Assembly (NCBI RefSeq): GCF_963853765.1
Contig: NC_088861.1
Coordinates: 11,718,001 to 11,782,000, forward strand
Direction of reading: 5' to 3'
From: Magallana gigas
Lineage: Eukaryota
DNA: 64,000 nucleotides
Below the pieces are notes generated by a model. That model did not search any database. It saw only the letters and a program-made list of their open reading frames with translations, and was not told the DNA's origin. The translations under genes and the position numbers were made by a program. Below are positions 355-26,910 of the stretch, one piece after another. Position 1 is the stretch's first letter. The number at the start of each line of letters is the position of its first letter.

Positions 355-1630
355 TAGGAGGGGGTGGGGCAATATGACTTCCCTGAAGATGAAGACGTCG
401 AAGAATATCGATTTCCAGGTGTCGGGGACAACGAAGAGTTATCAGGTGTTAATATCAACTAAGAGCTGAGCCCTAAAGATAGGCAGAAATCTAACTTCTC
501 TTTTGAACTAGTTTGATGATGTGTTATCTGACTATCCGTGATATATTCATGTGATTGAACATGATATTAAACAAACTCAAATCAACCTATCAGAGTAAAA
601 GCATATGCACTCCCCTTTTCGATGAGAGACATAGTAGATAGGGAAGTTGAGAAAATGCTAGATCTGAATGTAATCAAACCGTCAGATAGTCCCTATAGCT
701 CGCCAGTAGTACTTGTGAAGAAAAAAGATGATTCCTACCGATTCTGTGTGAAATTTAGAGCCATAAATTTATGTCTCAATTTGATGCAGAACCAATGCCT
801 AATGCAGATAATATTTTCACAAACTTTGCGAATTATAAGTTTCTCTATAGAATAGACCTATCCAAGGGATACTGGCAGGCTCAACTGATGACAATATCGT
901 CTAAACCTAAAACAGCATATCAGACTTCCATAGGACTCTTCCAATTCTGGTCGCTGCCGTTTGGATTGTTGACAGCTCCAGCTACGTTTTCTAGATTGAT
1001 GCTTATGTTGTTGTATGAAATGACAAACATTGGCAATTTCATTGATGACATCATTAATTTACAACAGACGTAGATTAGCATATAACAGTACTTCGTGTGC
1101 TCTTCACGCGATTAAGAAACGCAAACCTGACAACAAAGCCAGGAAAATATACAATAAGGTACAAATGCATAGAATGTCTGGATCACATCCCAGACAAGGT
1201 AAAGGCAATCCAAGAAGCGGTGGCACCTAGCACAATACGTCATGTAAAATCTTTTCTTAGGCTTCTCAGTTTTTACAGGAAGTTTATTCCAAACTTTTCA
1301 TTCATTGCGTTACCCCTTACAGATTTAACAAAGAAAGGGTCGCCAAACAAGCCTTTGGAATCAGCATCAGGAGAAATCTTTTCAATCATTTGAATTCATG
1401 CTTTTACAGTTACCTATTCTCAAACTTCCAGAAAATATATTTAAATATTTTATCAAAATTTATTTAAATATTTTATCAAAGCAGTTTATTCTTTAGACAG
1501 ATGCTTTTGAAAGAAGAATTGGTGCTGTCCTGATGCAGTTTGACAATGAAAGCGGATTGAAACTTTTGGTAGCATATGCCAGCAGGGTACTAAAAGATGA
1601 ATGCAGGTATTCAACAATCGAGAAGGACGT
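355..1630 (+). pseudogene. Decayed Ty3/Gypsy pol fragment (RT + partial RNase H), multiple frameshifts and stops
   Basis: ORF pieces 622-855, 771-1073 and 1097-1393 read SPYSSPVVLVKKKD..RFCV, IDLSKGYWQ, PFGLLTAPATFSRLM, NFIDD and FLRLLSFYRKFIPNFS. Out-of-track frames at 1490-1630 read FILRTDA..IGAVLMQ and AYASRVLK..YSTIEK (RNase H). Confidence 0.9.
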
Positions 1631-2139: not shown

Positions 2140-3307
2140 GAGATATTATAGGTCTAGAACGTGCAACTATTAAAGTACTGAATGAATGTATTGATACTTT
2201 TGCAGAAAATTTCTTTTAACATTTTATATTTTACCCAAGCAAACCATTATGAAGAAGATAAGTAAGTTCTTTTCGATTTTTTAATTTTACCCCAGTGGGT
2301 CATTTTGGGAAAGATGGAGAGGTTATTTTTGTAAGAGCAAAGTACAGACATTTTCTTTAAATATAATCTTCATCCATATATAAGTAACAACAATAACACT
2401 TTGTTCATACAAGTCTTTCATATTTCACTACACAGATCTGAGATCATTAGATAATATTTTTGACAAATAAAAAAGTGAGACATGTTAGTGTAATGCATGA
2501 ATTCAATGGGAAATTTATGTAAATAAATAAACTATAGTTATCATCGTTATAGAGACTGACAATGTTAAAACTGACAAAAGGAGTGAGAGGTATATCAGAA
2601 TAATATCCAATGAAATGAGATAAGAAATAAACTCATTTTCCAGAACAGTGATCTGATAAGTTTAATGGTGTATTGGGACATTGCGTAATCTTCCAATTTG
2701 GTAAGGTTTAGAAAGAACTGGAAAAGTAATACATTACACTGCTATTAAGCAACTTTCATATAATCCATGTGATCATCTCAATTAGCCCCATTTTTATGAT
2801 TTCTGCTCAATGGCAGTTGATAAATCTGAACTTTTTTCTTACAATTAACCTCTGTTTTATATGCAGACTTTGGTTCTATAATGACATTTGGATGGTTTTT
2901 TTTTCAGAGCATAAGAAGCCTATGACTGCCAAGAGCGACTTCAGCAAATGGAAGTCCTTTTCTGTTTACCTTATGAGCTAACTTAAATTACAGTATTTGT
3001 TTTAAATTTGAAATTTAAACTAAAATTATGAATAAAATAAGATGCAGAGGGGGCACATAACCTTTTGGAAGGGGTTTATATGTGAGACTGGTCAGAATAT
3101 GAGCCATTTGCCCTTCAGTGAAAGTATGCATATGTTTATCATGTAATTTAATTATTATTAAAAATTTACGCGAAAGGTTTTCTGAGCACATTATTCATAT
3201 TATTTAATATTGAGTTGTAGAATATACCTGTCAAGGAATACTTTTGAAGACACTACATCACAAGATGGCGCTTTAAATATATTGTTTTAAATTAACATTT
3301 AGTATGA

Positions 3308-3924
3308 TGTAAACCTATAGGGTTTGAGACAATTGTTTTAATTTAATAATAATAAACATATTGATTATTTTTTATAATATATTTACGATATAATATATTG
3401 ACCTTTAACAATGTACTTACTATAAAGTACATTGACCTGGGATCTAATCAGGATGTGAAAGTGCAAGACTTTTTCGAGACATTTCCGAAATAGTAAACAA
3501 ACTATTAATCGGATTAAGGACAGTGTAAACAAAACCAGGATGTACATCTATTTAGAGGAGCCGATAATGGAACAATAATTGAACATTACTAAAATTTATG
3601 TTAACATTATATTAATTTTTAAATAAGACTGTGACGTTAAATTAAAGACAGCAGAAATTTATATTATATTATAAATTATTTTGTGAGTTTTCAGGATTTT
3701 ATCATGATCTATTATAGAACTTAATAGTACAAATAATTATGGAATTTGTTTACTTGAATATTAATTTGTTTATTTTGTATGTAAATAACTGTTATGTATG
3801 TAATCATATAAAATATACTCGACGGCACTCTTGCGAGAGAGCCACTATACGATCCTCCATACGATCTGGACCTGTACCAAATAAACTATTGGAAAAGACG
3901 TTTGACTTGTCTTATTGGCTTACA
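3308..3924 (+). repeat. 5' LTR
   Basis: Direct repeat of 11407-12022; about 15 substitutions and 1 indel by manual count (~97% identity); TG...CA ends. Confidence 0.97.
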
Positions 3925-3939
3925 TCTACTAAGTCAATT

Positions 3940-3952
3940 TGGTGCCGTGACT
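3940..3952 (+). promoter_or_regulatory. Primer binding site complementary to the tRNA-His 3' end
   Basis: TGGTGCCGTGACT matches the reverse complement of the eukaryotic tRNA-His(GUG) 3' end (recalled sequence). It lies 15 nt downstream of the LTR end. Confidence 0.8.
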
Positions 3953-4101
3953 GACCAGGATTGGCGAAGTGCCTTTAGACAGACCTTGTAGAAGCAAAAC
4001 GGTGAGATACTGTATTCTGTTCTACCTAGTTTATTTTAGCTGACCACTTTAATTGAAATTCTAATTCTTTTTTACAATTGAATTTTAAAGTCAAAATTTA
4101 A

Positions 4102-5304
4102 ATGGCGAAAGTACCATCTTTTGGGGATGAGTTATCAAAAGCAATAGATGATTTAACTAATCAAACGTCAGAAACTGAAATTTTGGATGATCAGTGTAAT
4201 GGGGGAATGAGTTCAAATTGCTTTCCGTCTACAAGTGGAAAAGGAAATGTAAGGAATGATGATGAGGATACAGATATTAAAGAATGGATGAATTCTATTT
4301 CAAATCAGGTTAAATCACTAACTGCTGCAATTGCTGTTCCTATCAATCAAGTTAATACAATATTTGAGGGGGATCCAGGACAATTGAAACAATGGATAAA
4401 AGATATATAAAAATACGCAAAAATGTCTGATATGAATAATGAAGATATTCCAAAAATAGCGTATGTAACTTGTAAAGGGTCTGTGGGAGATTTTATTAAA
4501 AGATATTTGACAGAAATAGAAGCTTCGGGTGAATTACCTAGCTGGAATGATTTAAAACAGTTTTTAAAAAATAGATTTGCTGAAATAACAGATTCACAGC
4601 ATGCATTGGCAATCATGAGAAAAATGAGACAAAATTCCAATGAGAATGTACAAATATTTGCTGAAAGAATTTTACAAGTTGCGGACGATGCATACACGTC
4701 TGAAAATTTAGAACATAATATTATTAAAAAACAGTTGGTTGACATTTTTACTGATGGGTTATCATTTGATTTTTTGAGAATGAAAGTTTTTAGAGGAAAT
4801 CCTAAAACATTAGAAAATGCGGTACAAGTGGCAATGAGAGAGCAACATTTGCGCAAACATTTCGCTTTAAGATCTCAAGATAACGGGGGTGACATGTCCT
4901 TTAATCAAAATTCCACCAGTACAGTAGGAAATAATTTTTTATTTAAAATTCCTGAAATTAAATCAAACAATTTTCGAAGAGAAGAACCAATGGAAATTGA
5001 TCATTTTCGAAATCAACGATGTCACAGGTGTAGAAAAATTGGGCACAGAGCAAAATTTTGTCCTTTTCAAGTTTCAGCAAACAAATCAAATCCTAATCAA
5101 CAAAGATCCAGGGTACATGTAAGTGAAATTTCAAATGATTTAGAACGGGGAAGGTGTCATTTACAGTGTTGGCATAGTGAAAAATACGGTCATGTTCGTA
5201 GAAATTGTCCTGAAATGTATCAAAGGAGGAGGCCTTTTAGTTATCAAAATTCATGCAAAACTCCGTACAATTCTTGGCGACATTCTAAACATTAGGAAAA
5301 CTAA
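4102..5304 (+). pseudogene. gag: gag (capsid-like region, PMEID motif, CCHC zinc knuckle plus a second degenerate knuckle) with in-frame stops
   Basis: ORFs 4102-4410 and 4423-5295 share a frame and are split by TAA 4408-4410. Motifs EPMEIDH, CHRCRKIGHRAKFC and CWHSEKYGHVRRNC. TAG at 5293, then GAA AAC TAA ending at 5304. Confidence 0.9.
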
Positions 5305-8300
5305 GGGTCTCTCTTCATAATGAAGCCGATGAAGAGAGAATAAATAAATGTGATAATAAAATTGTATATAAAATTAGTTTAACTGGGAATCCAAGTTCTT
5401 GCCTTGTTAAATTTGGGGAAAATAAATTTAGGGCTTTAATTGATACTGGGGCTGAAGTATCACTAATTAGTAGAAAAATGTACAACAGTTTAAGCTTTCC
5501 ACATAAAGTAAATAAAAATCAAAAACCTTATTTACAAGCGGCAAATGGTGAATCACTTTCAGTTGTAGGTAGAGTTAATCTTTCCTTTAAAATGAATGGG
5601 CTTCCACTGTCTCACAATTTTTATGTAACGGAAGGGCTTAATAGATGTGTCATTTTAGGAAGAGATTGGTTAAGAATGAATGGAGTCAGGATATACTTTG
5701 ATTTGGGGTGTTTAAGAATAGGAAAAACATATGTTAAATTACAAGAAGATATTCATATTTCATCTTTGGTGAGAATAAATAAAAAACTTGTAATTAAACC
5801 ACAAACAGCAGTGGTCTGTCATGCAAAATTAAGCTCAGGTTTTCAAAGAAAATATGGTGATATAATCGAGATTCAAAACATTGATGAATGCATTAATGAT
5901 GAACCAGGGTTATTTATAAAAAGATCAGTAGATAGAGTAAGGAAAACGCGTAAAGATTCAATCTTAGTTGTTAATCGCTCTAACAAAGCATACGCGTTGA
6001 AACGAGGATTTGTTTTAGGAAAAGCAAAATCTGCGAACAAAAGCGAGATAAATAATTTTGAATTATCCAACAATAATTCCAGCCATTCGGAAGATTTTAA
6101 AGAGATTGACGTGCCGGAAGAATATAAATCTTGCGTTTTGGACATAGTTCAAGCCAATAAAGATTTCTTTGCGAAGCATGACGTTGAGTTGGGGCATACT
6201 GAAACTGCTAAAATGAAAATTGAAACGGGAAATCATCCTCCTATTAAAAATAGACCGTATCGCACTCCGTTGAATAAAAGACAGACTATTGATAAAGCTA
6301 TTGATGAAATGTTGGCTGCAAAAATAATCACCAGACCGCAGTCACCATGGTCATTTCCGTTAGTAGTTGTGGGAAAGAAAGATGGAACTCAGAGAATGTG
6401 TGTAGACTTCCGGTCATTAAATAAAATTGTTACACCTGCGTCATATCCGTTACCCCTCATTGATGATATTTTAAGTTTATTAGATAAATCTAAATATTTT
6501 ACAACACTTGATTTAAAGAGTGGGTATTGGCAAGTTCAGTTAGATGAAGAAAGTAAAGAAAAGACGGCTTTTGCGTGTCATAAAGGCTTGTTTCAGTTTA
6601 ATAGAATGCCTTTTGGTTTAAGTAATGCGCCAGCAGTATTTCAGGAATTAATGAACATTGTTTTACAGGGATGTGAGAAATTTGCGACCGCGTATCTTGA
6701 TGATGTTCTTATATTTTCAAAAACCGCCAGAGAACATCAAAAGCACATTCAGGAGATATTTCGTCAAATTCGTGAACATGGTCTCAAGTTAAAATTAAAG
6801 AAATGTAAGTTTTTCCAACAGAAAACAGAATATTTAGGTTTTGTAATAAGCTCAGAAGGTGTTAAACCAGATCAAAAGAAGGTACAAGCTATTCAAACAC
6901 TACCAGCACCAAGTACAGTGAGAGAGGTTAGAGGTTTTATTGGTATGTGTAGTTATTATCGTCGTTTTATACCAAACTTTTCTAAGATTGCCGAATCACT
7001 GATAGATCTTACACGTAAGTATTCCCGATTCAAATGGACAGAGCAATGTCAACTTGCTTTTGATTTTCTTAAAGAAAGTTTAAAAGTAGTACCTTTACTC
7101 GCATACCCAGATGTCAACAAACCGTATGTATTGTATACTGATGCTAGTGACAATTGTATTGGGCCTTGCTAAACACAGAAAACAGATGAGGGAGAGGAAA
7201 ACCCCATTTATTATCTTTCTCACAAACTTAGTAAGACACAAGAAAAATGGTCCACAATAGAACGCGAAGCATATGCAATACACTATGCACTACAAAAACT
7301 TGATCATTATTTGCATAATGCCACTTTTATTATTAAAACTGACCACAAACCCTTGAAATATATATTGGATGCTCCTATGCAAAACAAGAAAATACAACTC
7401 TGGGCATTAAGTCTTGCTGGATACAATTGTAAGGTTGAGTATATTGAAGGTAGGTATAACTGTTGTGCAGACTTTTTTTCGAGACTTCCATCTAATACAC
7501 AGGATAATAAAGAGGGTAAGGATGAAAATGAACTGGATGTTAATGATAACACATTTGAAGTCAGTGCAATAAATTCCAACCGTATTGAATCTAAGTTATT
7601 TGTTAACTCTGATTTCAAAGTACATGATGATTTGATTAAGCCATTTTAAGATTTACCAGAACATATCAATGTTCAAGAATTACAAAAATCAGATGAACAA
7701 ATTGTTAAATTAAAAGAAAGAATTGAAAAAGGAAAAGCTACTCGATTTGAAGAACCAAAGTTTTTATAGATTGAAGGACTCTTATATTATTTGGCATATG
7801 GAGATTCCGAATCTCCAAGACTACGGTTATATGTTCCTCAAGAATTAGAGGAAATTACTTTAAAACAATATCATGACAACTTAGGACAAATGGCAGAAGA
7901 CAAAACTTATGATGCTATAAGACAAAAGTATTATATTCCGAATTTATACAAAAAGTTAATTCGTTACATTGAACAATGTATAATTTGTCAAACTAGAAGT
8001 TCCAGAAAAAGTCATCCACCGGTACAAGAAACGGAAATTCCTCCTTATCATTTTGCTAAGATTGCATTTGACCTGTCAGGGCCTTACCCAACTACTCTCT
8101 CCGGAAATAAATACATTGTATCCCTGATAGATATTTACTCAGGTTGGCCGGAAGCATTTTGTGTAGCCGACAAATCAGCAGATAATATAGATCACATAAT
8201 TTTGGATGAGATATTTCCTCGTTATGGATGTCCTTTACAACTTTTGACAGATAATGGTACAGAAAATGTTAATAAAAAATGAAAGACACTCTTCGGGAAT

Positions 8301-9700
8301 TAAACATTCATCATATTACTACCTCTTATTACAATCCACAGGGTAATGGTAAGGTAGAAAGGTTTCACAGAACTCTTCATGATGTTATGGCTAAAAAGGT
8401 ACAAGAAGACGTACAAACTTGGGATCTTTATCTAAATCAAACTTTGGCTGCAATCAGGTTTCATGTAAATGAGTCCACTAAATACTCTCCATTTTTCCTG
8501 TTGTACAATAGAGATGTAGTTTTACCTTTAGATACTATATTAAAACCACGGAGAAGGTACATGGGGGAAGATCAGAATCAGGTTGCATTACAACAACAAC
8601 ATAAATCATTTGTTCAAGTTCATAGAAATCTGAAAGAAGCTAAGCGTAAGCAGAAAATACAAGCTGATAAAGGAAGTAAGGAAGAAATTGTTCATGTTGG
8701 TGATTCTGTCTATTTGAAAAATCATCGCAGAACAGGTAAGCTTGATAAACGATGGGTACCATATTACCGCATAATTGAACAAACAGGACCGGTAAGTTTT
8801 ATAGTTAAAAACCAACTTAATGGTACCACAACTAAAGCACATGCTAGGCACCTTCATCATGCTAAATTAGACGAATGGGAAATACCACAAAATATGGGGG
8901 GACGAGTTTTAAGACAAACACAGTATGTAGTTCCACCGGAAAATGTGTCCGAAGAAGAAAATTCGGACGAGGAAGGAGAAACGGCATTGCAGAGACTGGT
9001 AAGTCAAAAGAGAGTTGAACGTGATAATTCTTCAGATGAAGACGATATTCTGTTGCAAGAACTTAGAAGAATTCGCGCTCGTGCTTTAAACAACGATGCG
9101 GATAATGAAAATACACTAGATAATCTAAATAATAATGAAACTTTAACGTCACCTAAAATAAATGATCGAGATTTACAAGAAAATCTAAATAATAATGAAA
9201 CTTTAACGTTACCTAAAATAAATGATCGAGATTTACAAGAAAATCTAAATAATAATGAAACTTTAACGTTACCTAAAATAAATGATCGAGATTTACAATC
9301 CGAAATGGAATATTATTCTGACTCTTCTATTGATAAAGACCGACAGTCGACTGCTTCTGCCTCCAAAGACGAGCAAAATAGGTTAGATGTAAATGTTGAA
9401 ATAAGTGATTCAACAGAACAATTGGAAATAAAACAGGAAATGGAAATTGATGAAGTAAAGGATGTTAATGATAACCACATTTTGAAAATAGGCTTTAATA
9501 ATAAAGTAAAACCACCTATAACACCAAGAACAAGTATTAATAAATTAAATAAGGGATGTATGGAAAACATGAAACAAAGGTTTAAGCCAGAAGTAAAATT
9601 AAGAAAGTCTCAGAAACATAAAGTGTGTAATGGTGATACAAGTGATAAACTTTCTGTTAAACAATTGATTAAGATGATGGGGAAAATGTTACAAGTATAA
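5295..9700 (+). pseudogene. pol: pol (protease, RT, RNase H, integrase, long acidic C-terminal extension); 3 stops and 1 frameshift
   Basis: The frame is open from 5295. PR ALIDTGAEVS (DTG at 5442); RT LDLKSGYWQ, MPFGL, AYLDD; RH YTDAS, EREAYA, TDHKPL; IN H-x-C-C zinc motif, FDLSGP, TDNGTE, NGKVERFHRTL. Stops at 7170-72, 7647-49 and 7767-69; frameshift in the A-run at ~8275-8280. Confidence 0.96.
9122..9298 (+). repeat. 3 x 60-bp in-frame tandem repeat in the pol tail (NLNNNETLT(S/L)PKINDRDLQ)
   Basis: Sequence lines 9121, 9181 and 9241 are near identical. Confidence 0.97.
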
Positions 9701-9745
9701 GCATTTTTTTAAATTGTAGAACAAATTTTGTTGTGTTTTTTTTTT

Positions 9746-10968
9746 TATAAAGTTTTACCTTGTACAACCTTGTTGGAATACGATCGTCTTGTCATTGTAT
9801 TGTCAATTCCGTTATTAGATTGGGGAAAAACTTTTCAATAATATAAAATGCATACTCTTCCCATACCAAACCAAAATAATAATTAAACTAATTTATTGGC
9901 CAAATATGAGACGAGAGGTAACGCAATTGCAGTAGATGATATTCGCACCACTTTTGCTATTTTAAATAATAATGAATTGGAACAATGTATCAAACAAGAA
10001 GATGATTTCTGACCATTAAATAGTCCATTTTATCCTATTACCGCTAATAAAGCATGTATCATACAATTATTTTCAGGAAAAAAACAAGATATTAACAAAC
10101 ACTGTAAAATCCTCATTGAACCTAATCAAAATGGTCCAAGAATAACTTATTTAAGTGATGGAAAATTGTTAATTATCTCATCAAAAGTAATATCGTTTGT
10201 CATTAAGTGTAATAGAAAAGTTAAACAATATAGCATTAAATCTCCAGTTGATATTTTAACGTTAAGACAGGGATGCACTGCGTTCCATGGTTCATTGGTA
10301 TTACCTCCATTTTATAATAAGGAAAGTACGTTTGATCTCTCACCTTCATTTGATAAATTTGTAAAAGAAACTTTCATTTTAAAAGAATTGATTTGTGGAA
10401 CTCTTTTAATGAACATTTTCCAAAAGTTCAAAAGGTATCATTACCTGAGAAATTGAAACCTATTAAGGAAATTCCTATTCAAAATTTGATGAATGAAATG
10501 TCACTTCAAAAAATTAAGTCTATGCCTCACGAAGAATGGTTACAATCGCTTTGGTTCTATTTAGCAATATGTTTGGCGCTTTTCTGTTTGATTTGTATTA
10601 CTATTAAATTTCGAAAACAAATAAGTAAACGATGCAAAACAACTAAAAATAAGTGGTCAGTTAAGTTTAAGGGTAGAGAGAATTCTGTGTCTAAACCACC
10701 TTCTGAGTCAGCTTCCATAGACGAGGATACAGAACATTACGCCAAGGACTGGAGAGATGTGTCTACACTGGGACCAGAAGTTAAACTGGTACAACAGTAT
10801 ATCCAAGAGAAAAAGGACTTTATAAACAATTTAGGACAATATTGTGGGTCGGATCGGAATTCAAGAACACAGGATCAATTGATGGCTTCTACTCTGAAGG
10901 GCGATACTACCGCTTGGAGTGACGACAAATATACTCCGTCATCGACAAAATCTCATTTCAGGAATTGA
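9746..10968 (+). pseudogene. env: env-like glycoprotein ORF, C-terminal half with transmembrane anchor and cytoplasmic tail
   Basis: One frame from 9746 reads YKVLPCTTLLEYDRLVIVLSIPLLD..FQ*YKMHTLPIP..YETRGNAIAVDD..LNNNELEQCIK..F*PLNSPFYP..ACIIQLF..INKHCKILI..YLSDGKLLI..IKC..ILTLRQGCTA (stops at 9839, 9884, 10010). After a frameshift at ~10390 it continues into ORF 10393-10968 with the hydrophobic LWFYLAICLALFCLICITI (10549-10605) followed by KFRKQ. It sits between pol and the 3' LTR. Confidence 0.8.
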
Positions 10969-11397
10969 AGAAATAACTTTCAATGTGAACAATTTACAAA
11001 GATATACATATCTTACGTGAATATCTGGCCCGGAAACAACACCTACATGATGGAATAAGACAATATTTCCTACGATACATCCATGGGACATGAAGAAAGT
11101 GAAACAGTGTATATCCGTATTTGAATGTATTATTATAACTGTGTAATCCAAAAGTGAATTTTATTCCTTCTCATCAGTAAGCACACTGAAAATTTACTAC
11201 TAAGAAGAGGAAAACACAGAAACGCTAGTTACAACCGATTACCGTTATGAACATAATGCGATTATTTCAGTGAACCGTGTTTTAGTGATTTCCTATGTAG
11301 GAAGGATTAATATAATTGCTTCCTATTAGTGTATTTTATAATAATATAATTGTCTTATTTTCATTCAGAAATTTCTTTTCGAAATTTCTTATTACAT

Positions 11398-11406
11398 GGG
11401 GACGAA
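11398..11406 (+). promoter_or_regulatory. Polypurine tract
   Basis: GGGGACGAA directly abuts the TGTAAAC start of the 3' LTR. Confidence 0.65.
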
Positions 11407-12022
11407 TGTAAACTATAGGGTTTGAGACAATTATTTTAATTTAATAATAATAAACATATTGATTATTTTTTATAATATATTTACGATATAATATATTGAC
11501 CTTTTACAATGTACTTACTATAAAGTACATTGACCTGGAATCTGGTCAGGATGTGAAAGTGCAAGACTTTTCCGAGACATTTCCGAAGTAGTAAACAAAC
11601 TGTTAATCGGATTAAGGACAGTGTAAACAAAACCAGGATGTACATCTATTTAGAGGAGCCGATAAAGGAACAATAATTGAACATTACTAAAATTTATGTT
11701 AACATTATATTAATTTTTAAATAAGACTGTGACGTTAAATTAAAGACAGCAGAAATTTATATTATATTATAAATTATTTTGTGAGTTTTCAGGATTTTAT
11801 CATGATCTATTATAGAACTTAATAGTACAAATGATTATGGAATTTGTTTACTTGAATATTAATTTGTTTATTTTGTACGTAAATGACTGTTATGTATGTA
11901 ATCATGTAAAATATACTCGACGGCACTCTTGCGAGGGAGCAACTATACGATCCTCCATACGATCTGGACCTGTACCAAATAAACTATTGGAAAAGACGTT
12001 TGACTTGTCTTATTGGCTTACA
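11407..12022 (+). repeat. 3' LTR
   Basis: Direct repeat of 3308-3924, followed by TSD ATGA. Confidence 0.97.
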
Positions 12023-12044
12023 ATGAGTTGATTTCGTTGAATAT

Positions 12045-12112
12045 AATCATAGCTAAGTGGTTAAAGTATCGGGCTTGTTAATCACAGATCATGGGTATGA
12101 ATCCGCCTTGGG
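12045..12112 (+). repeat. Degenerate tRNA-derived (SINE-like) fragment
   Basis: A-box-like TAGCTAAGTGGTTAAAG and B-box-like GGGTATGAATCC at tRNA-like spacing. No intact cloverleaf. Confidence 0.4.
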
Positions 12113-25242: not shown

Positions 25243-26910
25243 ATGAACGACGATATATCAGATGCGGTAAAATATGGCGATTTTGAAGTATTTAGTGGGG
25301 ATAATTATGAAGCCCTCCTGCCAGAATTAAAATTAGAAGGTTTTGATTCTGATTTTGACAATTTTCTATCCGAAATGGTCGTTTCGGACTTCGATATAAC
25401 ACCCAACAGGCATTTGCCGATTTGAAAAAATCCGATGATCCCGGGTTGCCAGCCCCAGAAACGCCAACAAGTACTCGTTTTGCCAAGCTTTCCGACGACG
25501 AAATTAAAGGATTTCAGGAACTCACACAATCAAAGGCTACAAAACAAAGCACCAAATGGGGTTTAAAGATTCTTACACGTACGCTTCTTTTTTTTAAAAA
25601 AGTGAATATTAGTAAGCAGCAATTAAACGCAAACAAAAACAGCCCATATTATGCAGTTACAGTTTTTTCTCAAATAACTGTCAAAACATGGATATCATTG
25701 TGCGTTTTCTATTACAGATTGGCATATTGAAACGTTTGGAGTCCCTCTAGATCTGGCTGAGATTTGCGAGGAGGATCTGGCGAAAAAACTCAGTCGCTTT
25801 TACTGTGAAGCAAAACCCCAAAACCCGAAAAAGGAGCATACCTCTCGAATATCATAAAAATACCATGAAAGCAATCAGAGCCGCCATAAACAGGCATTTA
25901 TCCGACATCGGTCGAAATATAGACATTGTAAACGATAAAGCATTCAAAACTGCAAATAAAAGTTTGACCGGTCTCATGAAGCATAGAATGGTCACTGAAA
26001 CTTCTCGCCCTACAACTCATAAGGAGATCATTCACAAATCAGATTTACAGAAAATTTCTGCTTACCTGGAGAGTGCATATTCTTCTCCAGTCAATCTGCG
26101 ACTTGCAATGTGGTACATCATCGCGATACATTTTGTGTCTCGTGGTCTTGAATTCCATCATCAGCTTCGGGTAGATTCCTTCGATTTCAAAGTTGACGAA
26201 GAAGGCTCCATATATGCTTGTTTAAAGCATGAAACAAAACCAAAAAACTATCAAGGTGGCATTCACAAACTTGGAGCACTGAACAACAAAAGAATGTATG
26301 AAACTGGAAACGAAACTTGTCCTGTGAAGATGTTGAAGTTCTTCTTGTCTAAAACGGACCCAAATGCGTCTCATCTTTTCAATAAATGCGTTAAAGATGC
26401 CATTTCTTACCCGAAAGATTGCAACATATGGTACACAGCCGATCCCATGAAAAAGCGATCATAAGTTAATTTCCTTCCGGATATTTGCAAGGCCGCCGGG
26501 TGCAAACGTTACACAGCTCACTGTCTAAGAGCGACAGCAATTCAGGCCATGAACGACGCTGGATTTGAAGCAAGACACATCATGTACTTCTCCGGGCATC
26601 GCAACGAAGCTTCCATACGTAGCTATTATCGTGAACTGTCTTCTACCCCAAAAAAAGTGCGAGTGCAACTTTATCTACAATAACCACCGCAAGTGTCAAA
26701 ATAAATGATCCATCTGAAGATTCATGTGTAATTTCCGGCCAACAATCACAGAATCTTCAAATCGTTCCCTATAATTCTGAAAATTCCAACTTACCTGTCA
26801 AAAATGAACTAAATTGTTCCACCATGTCCGACTCGAGCATTAAATCTGGAGTTTTGAATAACTCCCGCTTTGAGAACTGTTCCATTACCATCAAGTACAA
26901 TCTCGACTGA
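25243..26910 (+). pseudogene. Crypton tyrosine recombinase (DUF3504/ZMYM-QRICH1-KCTD1-like), two exons, frameshifted
   Basis: Exon 1 25243-25578 (RFAKLSDDEI..SKATKQSTKWGLK), GT-AG intron 25579-25717, exon 2 to TGA 26908-26910. Catalytic set FVSRG, HCLR, SGH, RSYY; C-terminal FENCSITI. Lesions: frameshifts at ~25395, ~25818 and ~26655, and stop 26462-64. Confidence 0.9.

What the first reader, a model, noticed from the sequence alone, without database searches (positions are those of the whole stretch)
9746..10968. Envelope-like third ORF in a bivalve Gypsy element (retrovirus-like architecture)
Seen: between pol and the 3' LTR is a disrupted reading frame with spaced cysteines, an IVLSIPLL..F.LYK..LPIP segment, a 19-aa hydrophobic anchor and a ~120-aa basic cytoplasmic tail. 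Known: insect errantiviruses carry an env related to baculovirus F-type class I fusion proteins in this position, whereas the well-known bivalve element Steamer lacks env. Inference: this is an env-bearing, potentially infectious LTR lineage in an oyster-like host. The ~97% LTR identity suggests relatively recent activity, so intact relatives may exist.
Basis: partly seen in the sequence, partly recalled or inferred. Interest (0 to 1): 0.7.

Follow-up and report, generated by a model that had tools for sequence, protein, structure and literature searches.

The report
Broken envelope gene in oyster retrotransposon
This is the broken back half of a virus-type membrane-fusion (envelope) gene in a dead jumping gene of a likely oyster host, a kind already described in bivalves, but its relatives also carry up to four small extra genes of unknown function that are repeatedly lost together with the envelope.

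Summary
Window 9746-10968 is the C-terminal ~60% of an F-type (class I, Baculo_F) env in a tRNA-His-primed Ty3/gypsy element (LTRs 3308-3924 and 11407-12022, 97.6% identical). Uninterrupted relatives in the same genome (45% identical) hit Baculo_F at 1e-21 and fold like RSV and baculovirus F. A 2.9-kb deletion, shown by a 93%-identical sister copy, removed the signal peptide, furin site, fusion peptide and first heptad repeat; three stops and a frameshift break the rest. Chary and Hayashi (eLife 2026) list 36 bivalve elements, all F-type, oysters included. What I did not find in print: this clade carries one to four small accessory genes between pol and env, under purifying selection, mostly behind splice-acceptor-like sites, with no family or fold match. 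In all three families examined, derivatives delete accessory genes plus the fusogenic part of env; in the two sibling families they outnumber env-bearing copies (35:5 and 10:2), fitting the env-less superspreader model. Splicing and infectivity were not shown.

The parts
3304..3307 (+). 4-bp target-site duplication, left copy (ATGA)
   Evidence: solo LTRs L048, L049, L051 of the family also have 4-bp duplications
3308..3924 (+). 5' LTR, TG...CA, 617 bp
3940..3961 (+). tRNA-His primer-binding site, 15 nt behind the LTR, with a 4-nt duplication after the first 12 nt
   Evidence: 12 of 12 nt complementary to the tRNA-His end tabulated in PMC13524379 supplement 1
4002..4007 (+). predicted leader splice donor (GTGAGA); donor-like sites lie at similar places in L140, L045, L144
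   Evidence: inference, no spliced read seen
4102..5295 (+). gag with zinc knuckle; one premature stop (4408)
5289..9700 (+). pol, order protease-RT-RNase H-integrase, long acidic tail with a 60-bp repeat (9102-9298); stops at 7170, 7647, 7767, frameshift near 8280
9704..9719 (+). predicted splice acceptor of the first, now deleted, accessory ORF
   Evidence: inference from sister copy L039
9720..9745 (+). junction of the 2.9-kb deletion (accessory ORFs plus 5' part of env), short shared word at both ends, T-run
   Evidence: window 9726 and 9742 map to L039 5457 and 8357
9746..10384 (+). env remnant, beta-rich head region (residues about 306-513 of the 746-aa relative); three stops
   Evidence: 94 of 211 identical, E 1e-69; model
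10393..10968 (+). env remnant after the frameshift: stem, transmembrane anchor (10549-10605), 120-aa tail
   Evidence: (29 of 79 identical, E 7e-16)
11394..11406 (+). purine-rich tract before the 3' LTR (likely polypurine tract, imperfect)
   Evidence: sequence
11407..12022 (+). 3' LTR
12023..12026 (+). target-site duplication, right copy (ATGA)

Best explanation
The segment is the C-terminal remnant of an F-type class I envelope gene in a decayed tRNA-His-primed Ty3/gypsy element, left by a 2.9-kb deletion that likely arose by a microhomology-guided jump and that would leave no working fusion protein. Shown: in relatives the gene encodes signal peptide, RxxR site, fusion-peptide-like segment, long helices, beta-rich head, anchor and tail, and is preceded by one to four small accessory ORFs under purifying selection. 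Inferred: the ancestral element expressed env and accessory genes from RNAs spliced from a leader donor to an acceptor just ahead of each start codon; furin-cleaved Env trimers would let particles enter neighbouring cells, as for Drosophila errantiviruses; derivatives that drop the accessory genes and the fusogenic part of env keep gag, pol and the 3' signals and multiply inside cells. This copy is such a derivative that has since decayed throughout.
For: Relatives hit Pfam Baculo_F above its cut-off (3 of 3; 9 of 13 rows, best 2.3e-21); their profile matches PDB 'fusion protein' 9w4d/9w4c at 4e-21; the model of one relative (pLDDT 64.8) matches RSV F (E 5e-11) and baculovirus F/Ld130 (E 2e-22, TM 0.51). 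The window pieces align to residues 303-513 and 519-597 of that relative. Sister L039 holds 2.9 kb more at the junction, with extra ORFs, signal peptide and furin-site region. Accessory ORFs: dN 0.12-0.33 against dS 0.6 to saturated; acceptor-like site before 12 of 13 correctly placed start codons against 29 of 406 control ATGs. Parallel deletions: sister L040 (different right end); 10 of 12 fetched copies of the L045 family; 35 of 40 scored copies of the L037 family stop early, and 25 of 25 examined rejoin just before the anchor. In those 25, shared changes give w 0.08 for integrase and 0.59 for the env remnant, which is broken in 22.
Against: The remnant by itself has no Pfam match and found no protein, so the assignment is transitive. 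The fold is a model of a relative, pTM 0.43. No leader-to-acceptor splice joint was listed in four runs, and raw RNA reads nearly vanish over accessory genes b-d and env (about 1 in 100 of each raw run read). Start codons were chosen by eye and homologous ORFs are not independent. Truncated env halves of the L045 family still show w 0.15-0.34, which I ascribe to recombination with env-bearing copies without having proved it. The junction has filler bases, so the breakpoint and the mechanism (reverse-transcriptase switch or DNA repair) are not resolved.
Confidence: 0.92

Rival explanations
1. The truncated env (anchor plus basic juxtamembrane patch) was repurposed as a small FAST/sORF2-like cell-to-cell transmission factor, and the deletion is an adaptation that keeps it.
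For: All three families keep the anchor-coding part; the tail starts with a basic patch; truncated halves in the L045 family stay open for up to 397 codons with w 0.15-0.34; sORF2 precedent (PMC11952523, abstract and section 7).
Against: In 25 deleted copies of the L037 family the kept env part is broken in 22 (14 within the first 75 codons) with w 0.59-0.82, against integrase broken in 11 with shared w 0.08. The window copy lost the start codon behind the acceptor and has four breaks. All four pol/env deletion combinations occur in the L045 family, so recombination can explain low w there.
Confidence: 0.04
2. The segment is a captured host membrane-protein fragment unrelated to viral fusogens.
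For: No direct Pfam match for the remnant.
Against: Of the 77 genomic matches, every longer stretch fetched around a strong match also held gag or pol sequence; relatives match Baculo_F and class I structures.
Confidence: 0.01
3. This copy, or its own family, is a recently active infectious element.
For: LTRs 97.6% identical (K2P 0.025); reads from related copies are present in RNA runs.
Against: gag has one stop, pol three stops and a frameshift, env lacks its fusogenic half; next LTR matches are 93% or less and mostly solo or partial; only 4 of 451 reads in run X22 are 99% alike; no uninterrupted family member in this assembly (lower bounds).
Confidence: 0.03

Closest known systems
Bivalve F-type 'ancient errantiviruses' (Chary and Hayashi, eLife 2026, PMC13524379)
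   Same: gag-pol-env order, F-type env with furin site and fusion peptide, bivalve host; 36 of 36 Bivalvia rows in supplement 1 are ENV_F, 5 from oysters, 7 with a tRNA-His site, 6 of these set 8-20 nt behind the LTR as here.
   Different: This copy is deleted and decayed. Its clade has 0.9-2.0 kb of accessory ORFs between pol and env; the paper's first filter allowed up to 1,000 nt there (with a manual 3-kb extension step for protostomes) and its main text has no 'accessory' or 'splic'.
Drosophila errantiviruses (gypsy, ZAM) and baculovirus F (Pfam PF12259)
   Same: Class I F-type fusogen after pol; 4-bp target duplication and spliced env RNA are recalled for gypsy, not from a call.
   Different: tRNA-His rather than Lys/Ser/Leu primer; accessory genes; infectivity untested here.
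Env-less 'superspreader' endogenous retroviruses (as described in PMC4643047, passages)
   Same: Env-deleted derivatives outnumber env-bearing copies and keep selection on pol.
   Different: Invertebrate Ty3/gypsy host system; the window's own deleted copy did not visibly amplify in this assembly.
MDG1-group accessory sORF1/sORF2 (PMC11952523)
   Same: Small accessory ORFs in a Ty3/gypsy element.
   Different: Those lie upstream of gag, unspliced, in env-less elements; these lie between pol and env, are soluble-looking paralogs b/c/d, and coexist with env.
Steamer (Mya arenaria)
   Same: Bivalve LTR retrotransposon.
   Different: Steamer lacks env (recalled; the paper was not held); no sequence comparison was made.

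Membership tests
Ty3/gypsy LTR retrotransposon | pol order protease-RT-RNase H-integrase | tested here: met
Ty3/gypsy LTR retrotransposon | two TG...CA LTRs, target-site duplication, tRNA primer site | tested here: met
F-type errantivirus (sensu PMC13524379) | third ORF after pol homologous to F-type fusogens | tested here: met
   to relative; relative to Baculo_F and class I folds
F-type errantivirus (sensu PMC13524379) | signal peptide, furin site, fusion peptide in this copy | tested here: not met
   deleted here; present in relatives
F-type errantivirus (sensu PMC13524379) | uninterrupted gag, pol and env (the paper's 'intact' class) | tested here: not met
   stops and frameshifts in all three; the lineage, not this copy, qualifies
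'Ancient errantivirus' pol clade | placement in the published RT/connection tree | not tested
   no reference sequences at hand; my RT tree holds only elements of this genome; His primer site is shared with 7 of 36 bivalve entries
F-type errantivirus (sensu PMC13524379) | spliced env RNA | tested here: inconclusive
   donor- and acceptor-like sites; no joint listed, depth near zero over env
F-type errantivirus (sensu PMC13524379) | Env-dependent infection of cells | not testable with these tools
   needs bench work
HSV/gB-type (class III) env | gB-like five-domain fold | tested here: not met
   sequence and fold matches are class I F throughout
sORF2/FAST-like small fusogen (kept anchor part) | conserved open small membrane ORF | tested here: not met
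   sibling family: broken in 22 of 25, w 0.59-0.82
F-box / SOCS-box adaptor (accessory proteins b/c/d) | match to the box profile or fold | tested here: inconclusive
   LP..v...I.kY motif resembles these boxes from recall only; no Pfam match in 10 and 32 proteins, no PDB sequence match, low-confidence model with no clear fold match

The most novel reading that the evidence does not exclude
The His-primed clade is a 'complex' retrovirus-like lineage of invertebrates: besides env it makes up to four accessory proteins from separately spliced RNAs, and the paralogs b/c/d are cullin-ligase adaptors that destroy host defence proteins, like Vif, needed for cell-to-cell infection and therefore lost together with env. 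That the ORFs are real genes is well supported (about 0.9); the adaptor function is a guess from a motif.
Probability: 0.12. Interest if true: 0.75.

Novelty: new variant of a known kind. Interest (0 to 1): 0.38.

Why it matters
The env itself adds one broken copy to a published class. The useful part is the lineage: an oyster genome holds young env-bearing copies beside far more numerous env-deleted derivatives of the same families, arising independently at least four times, which gives a natural invertebrate test of the idea that envelope loss turns infectious elements into genomic spreaders. The accessory cassette between pol and env is a small uncharacterised protein family whose joint loss with env predicts a role in the extracellular or cell-to-cell phase.

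Tried and rejected
Pfam on the remnant alone: nothing. Protein database search with the remnant against longer proteins: 0 of 447 candidates. The ESM Atlas was not consulted, so look-alikes there are unknown. Accessory proteins: Pfam (only weak sub-threshold rows such as AAA_35), PDB sequences (best E 0.04 to a ribosomal protein, taken as chance), AlphaFold model pLDDT 64/pTM 0.34, VIA-align best Z 5.8 on generic helical hairpins, BFVD no match under E 0.001: no function assigned, and absence of a match does not show a new fold. Profile search of 1.84 billion representatives returned 34 proteins, the 20 read all members of the same family. Splice joints were sought in 4 runs and none from leader to acceptor was listed. 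The joint that skips the whole element (3286 to 12050) was not taken as an empty-site allele because the flank is itself a high-copy repeat. A splice origin of the deletion was considered and dropped: the junction keeps the acceptor-like site and does not match GT-AG ends. Earlier scan notes: none. Literature searches for accessory ORFs in such elements: 0 papers; 12 titles, none on this; 1 unrelated; irrelevant listing; 10 titles, not read. Repbase and Dfam could not be searched and may already hold these families.

Full report
Observation. The element runs from 3308 to 12022. Its LTRs are 617 bp, begin TG and end CA, and match at 602 of 617 positions (12 transitions, 3 transversions; K2P 0.025); ATGA flanks both ends. 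A site at 3940 is complementary over 12 of 12 nt to the tRNA-His end listed in supplement 1 of PMC13524379. gag (4102-5295) has one stop; pol (5289-9700) has protease, RT, RNase H and integrase in Ty3/gypsy order, with three stops and a frameshift. The tail is basic only near the membrane.

What the frame is. Alone it has no Pfam match and found nothing among 447 candidates in the protein collection. In its own genome (564 Mb, 29 contigs) it has 77 matches, several in open frames of 694-848 codons. The closest uninterrupted ones (L008-L010, 45% identical) read as a 746-aa protein with a hydrophobic N-terminus, an RxxR site at 131, a fusion-peptide-like segment, long helices, a cysteine-bearing beta region, an anchor and a tail. 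Three of three such proteins tested match Baculo_F above the cut-off, as do 9 of 13 alignment rows. The alignment profile matches PDB 'fusion protein' entries 9w4d and 9w4c at 4e-21 and 4e-19. An AlphaFold model of the unaltered relative (pLDDT 64.8, pTM 0.43) matches RSV F (E 5e-11) and baculovirus F/Ld130 and granulovirus F (E 2e-22 to 7e-20, TM 0.44-0.51). The window pieces align to residues 303-513 (94 of 211) and 519-597 (29 of 79) of that protein. So the segment is an F-type class I env of which the first ~300 residues are missing.

Why they are missing. The closest sister copy, L039 (92.6% over 5.1 kb), has 2.9 kb more between the equivalents of window 9726 and 9742. That stretch holds extra ORFs and the env start, signal peptide and furin-site region, itself frameshifted. 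Both ends of the missing stretch share a short word, and the junction has filler and a T-run, which suggests a microhomology-guided jump (inference). A second sister, L040 (83-85%), starts its deletion at the same place and ends about 110 nt earlier. A contig of another sample carries the window-type left side with a further 297-nt deletion. No uninterrupted member of the window's own family was found (6, 9 and 8 matches; lower bounds), and other LTR matches are 93% or less, three of them solo LTRs with 4-bp duplications. This copy is therefore dead, and its family is not visibly expanding here.

The lineage. An RT tree of 21 rows from this genome separates 13 rows, the window among them, from 8 others at 100/100 (midpoint root, no outside references). 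In the first group the primer site is tRNA-His wherever it was seen, and undeleted copies have 0.9-2.0 kb between pol and env with extra ORFs: four in the L037 family (a, and paralogs b, c, d), two in L094, one each in L044 and L045, at least three in L039, one of which matches d (E 2e-11). In the other group env follows pol within about 350 nt in the seven rows with a long env frame. Between sibling families the accessory ORFs show dN 0.12-0.33 against dS from 0.6 to saturation, like env (w 0.13-0.14). An acceptor-like site precedes 12 of 13 start codons (a 14th row was misplaced by one base and is dropped) against 29 of 406 ATGs in pol; the starts were picked by eye and are partly homologous. 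A donor-like site follows the primer site. Homologs exist in other datasets (45 proteins, one named from Magallana gigas; 34), and RNA runs labelled oyster hold the family, which supports an oyster host. No function could be assigned; the shared LP..v...I.kY motif recalls F-box and SOCS boxes from memory only.

Repeated loss. In the L045 family 10 of 12 fetched copies lack the accessory ORF and 5' env, by two different junctions, and all four combinations of pol deletion and env deletion occur, which implies recombination (these copies were found with the env 3' half, so the sample is biased). In the L037 family 40 of 118 candidates were scored: 5 run through the accessory region and 35 stop by position 629; the 25 of these 35 that came back as loci all rejoin shortly before the anchor. 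In those 25, changes shared between copies give w 0.08 in integrase and 0.59 in the kept env part, which is broken in 22 copies against 11 for the longer integrase. The derivatives thus replicated with working pol while the env remnant decayed. Raw RNA reads in three runs cover gag, pol and ORF a and fall to about 0-2 beyond it, and no splice joint was listed: expressed copies are mostly env-less, and splicing remains unshown. A result against a clean story: truncated halves in the L045 family keep w 0.15-0.34, which recombination may explain.

Mechanism. Shown: anatomy, homology, deletion, selection pattern. Inferred: ancestral expression of env and accessory genes from spliced RNAs; furin cleavage and class I fusion giving cell entry, by analogy with Drosophila errantiviruses; intracellular spread of env-deleted derivatives, as in the superspreader model (PMC4643047, passages; the original paper not read).

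Known or new. PMC13524379 (seen: abstract, passages, section 14, first parts of sections 5 and 6, and all Bivalvia rows of supplement 1) lists 36 bivalve elements, 36 of 36 ENV_F, five from oysters and seven with a His primer site. The accessory cassette was not found in print, which do not cover Repbase, Dfam, most subscription journals or that paper's figures and sequence repository. PMC11952523 (abstract and section 7) describes accessory ORFs in another position and context. Steamer's lack of env is recalled only.

Verdict. A real but broken F-type env in a known class of element; the lineage is a variant with an undescribed accessory cassette and repeated env loss. Interest 0.38.

Noticed in passing
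L037:5354-7344 (also L041, L042, L093, L094, L096): Cassette of up to four accessory ORFs between pol and env; b, c and d are paralogs, under purifying selection, with no family or fold match.
   Followed up: yes
L045:6373-6906 and L044:6537-7145: Single accessory ORFs unrelated by BLASTP to b/c/d; the L044 one begins with an F-box-like-looking motif (recalled resemblance), no Pfam match.
   Followed up: partly
L045, L098-L104, L146-L148, L150: Family with all four combinations of internal pol deletion and env deletion, including a copy without RT and integrase core but with an open env: suggests complementation and recombination between defective copies.
   Followed up: partly
L105-L112: A second, distant env-bearing clade without accessory ORFs; its F-type env has a second hydrophobic segment and a conserved C-terminal domain of about 120 aa. 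Several copies have long open gag, pol and env frames.
   Followed up: no
model me01352a3057e, rank 6: An uncharacterised abalone herpesvirus protein (A0A145VUZ2) is among the best structural matches (E 3e-20, TM 0.47): a mollusc virus with an F-type fold, possibly relevant to env origin.
   Followed up: no
window 3250-12100, run X22: Reads from related copies lie mostly with the first mate on the + strand, which in common stranded libraries means antisense RNA.
   Followed up: no
window 571-1393: Decayed RT/RNase H region of a second LTR retrotransposon (three short frames; recognised by eye).
   Followed up: no
window 25359-26464: DUF3504 frame (E 3.7e-8), typical of Crypton-derived tyrosine-recombinase sequences (recalled).
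   Followed up: partly
window about 3250-3286 and 12046-12100: The element sits inside a high-copy short repeat (depth above 1,100 and many loose ends).
   Followed up: no
window 9102-9298: Three 60-bp tandem units in the acidic pol tail; sister L039 has fewer.
   Followed up: no
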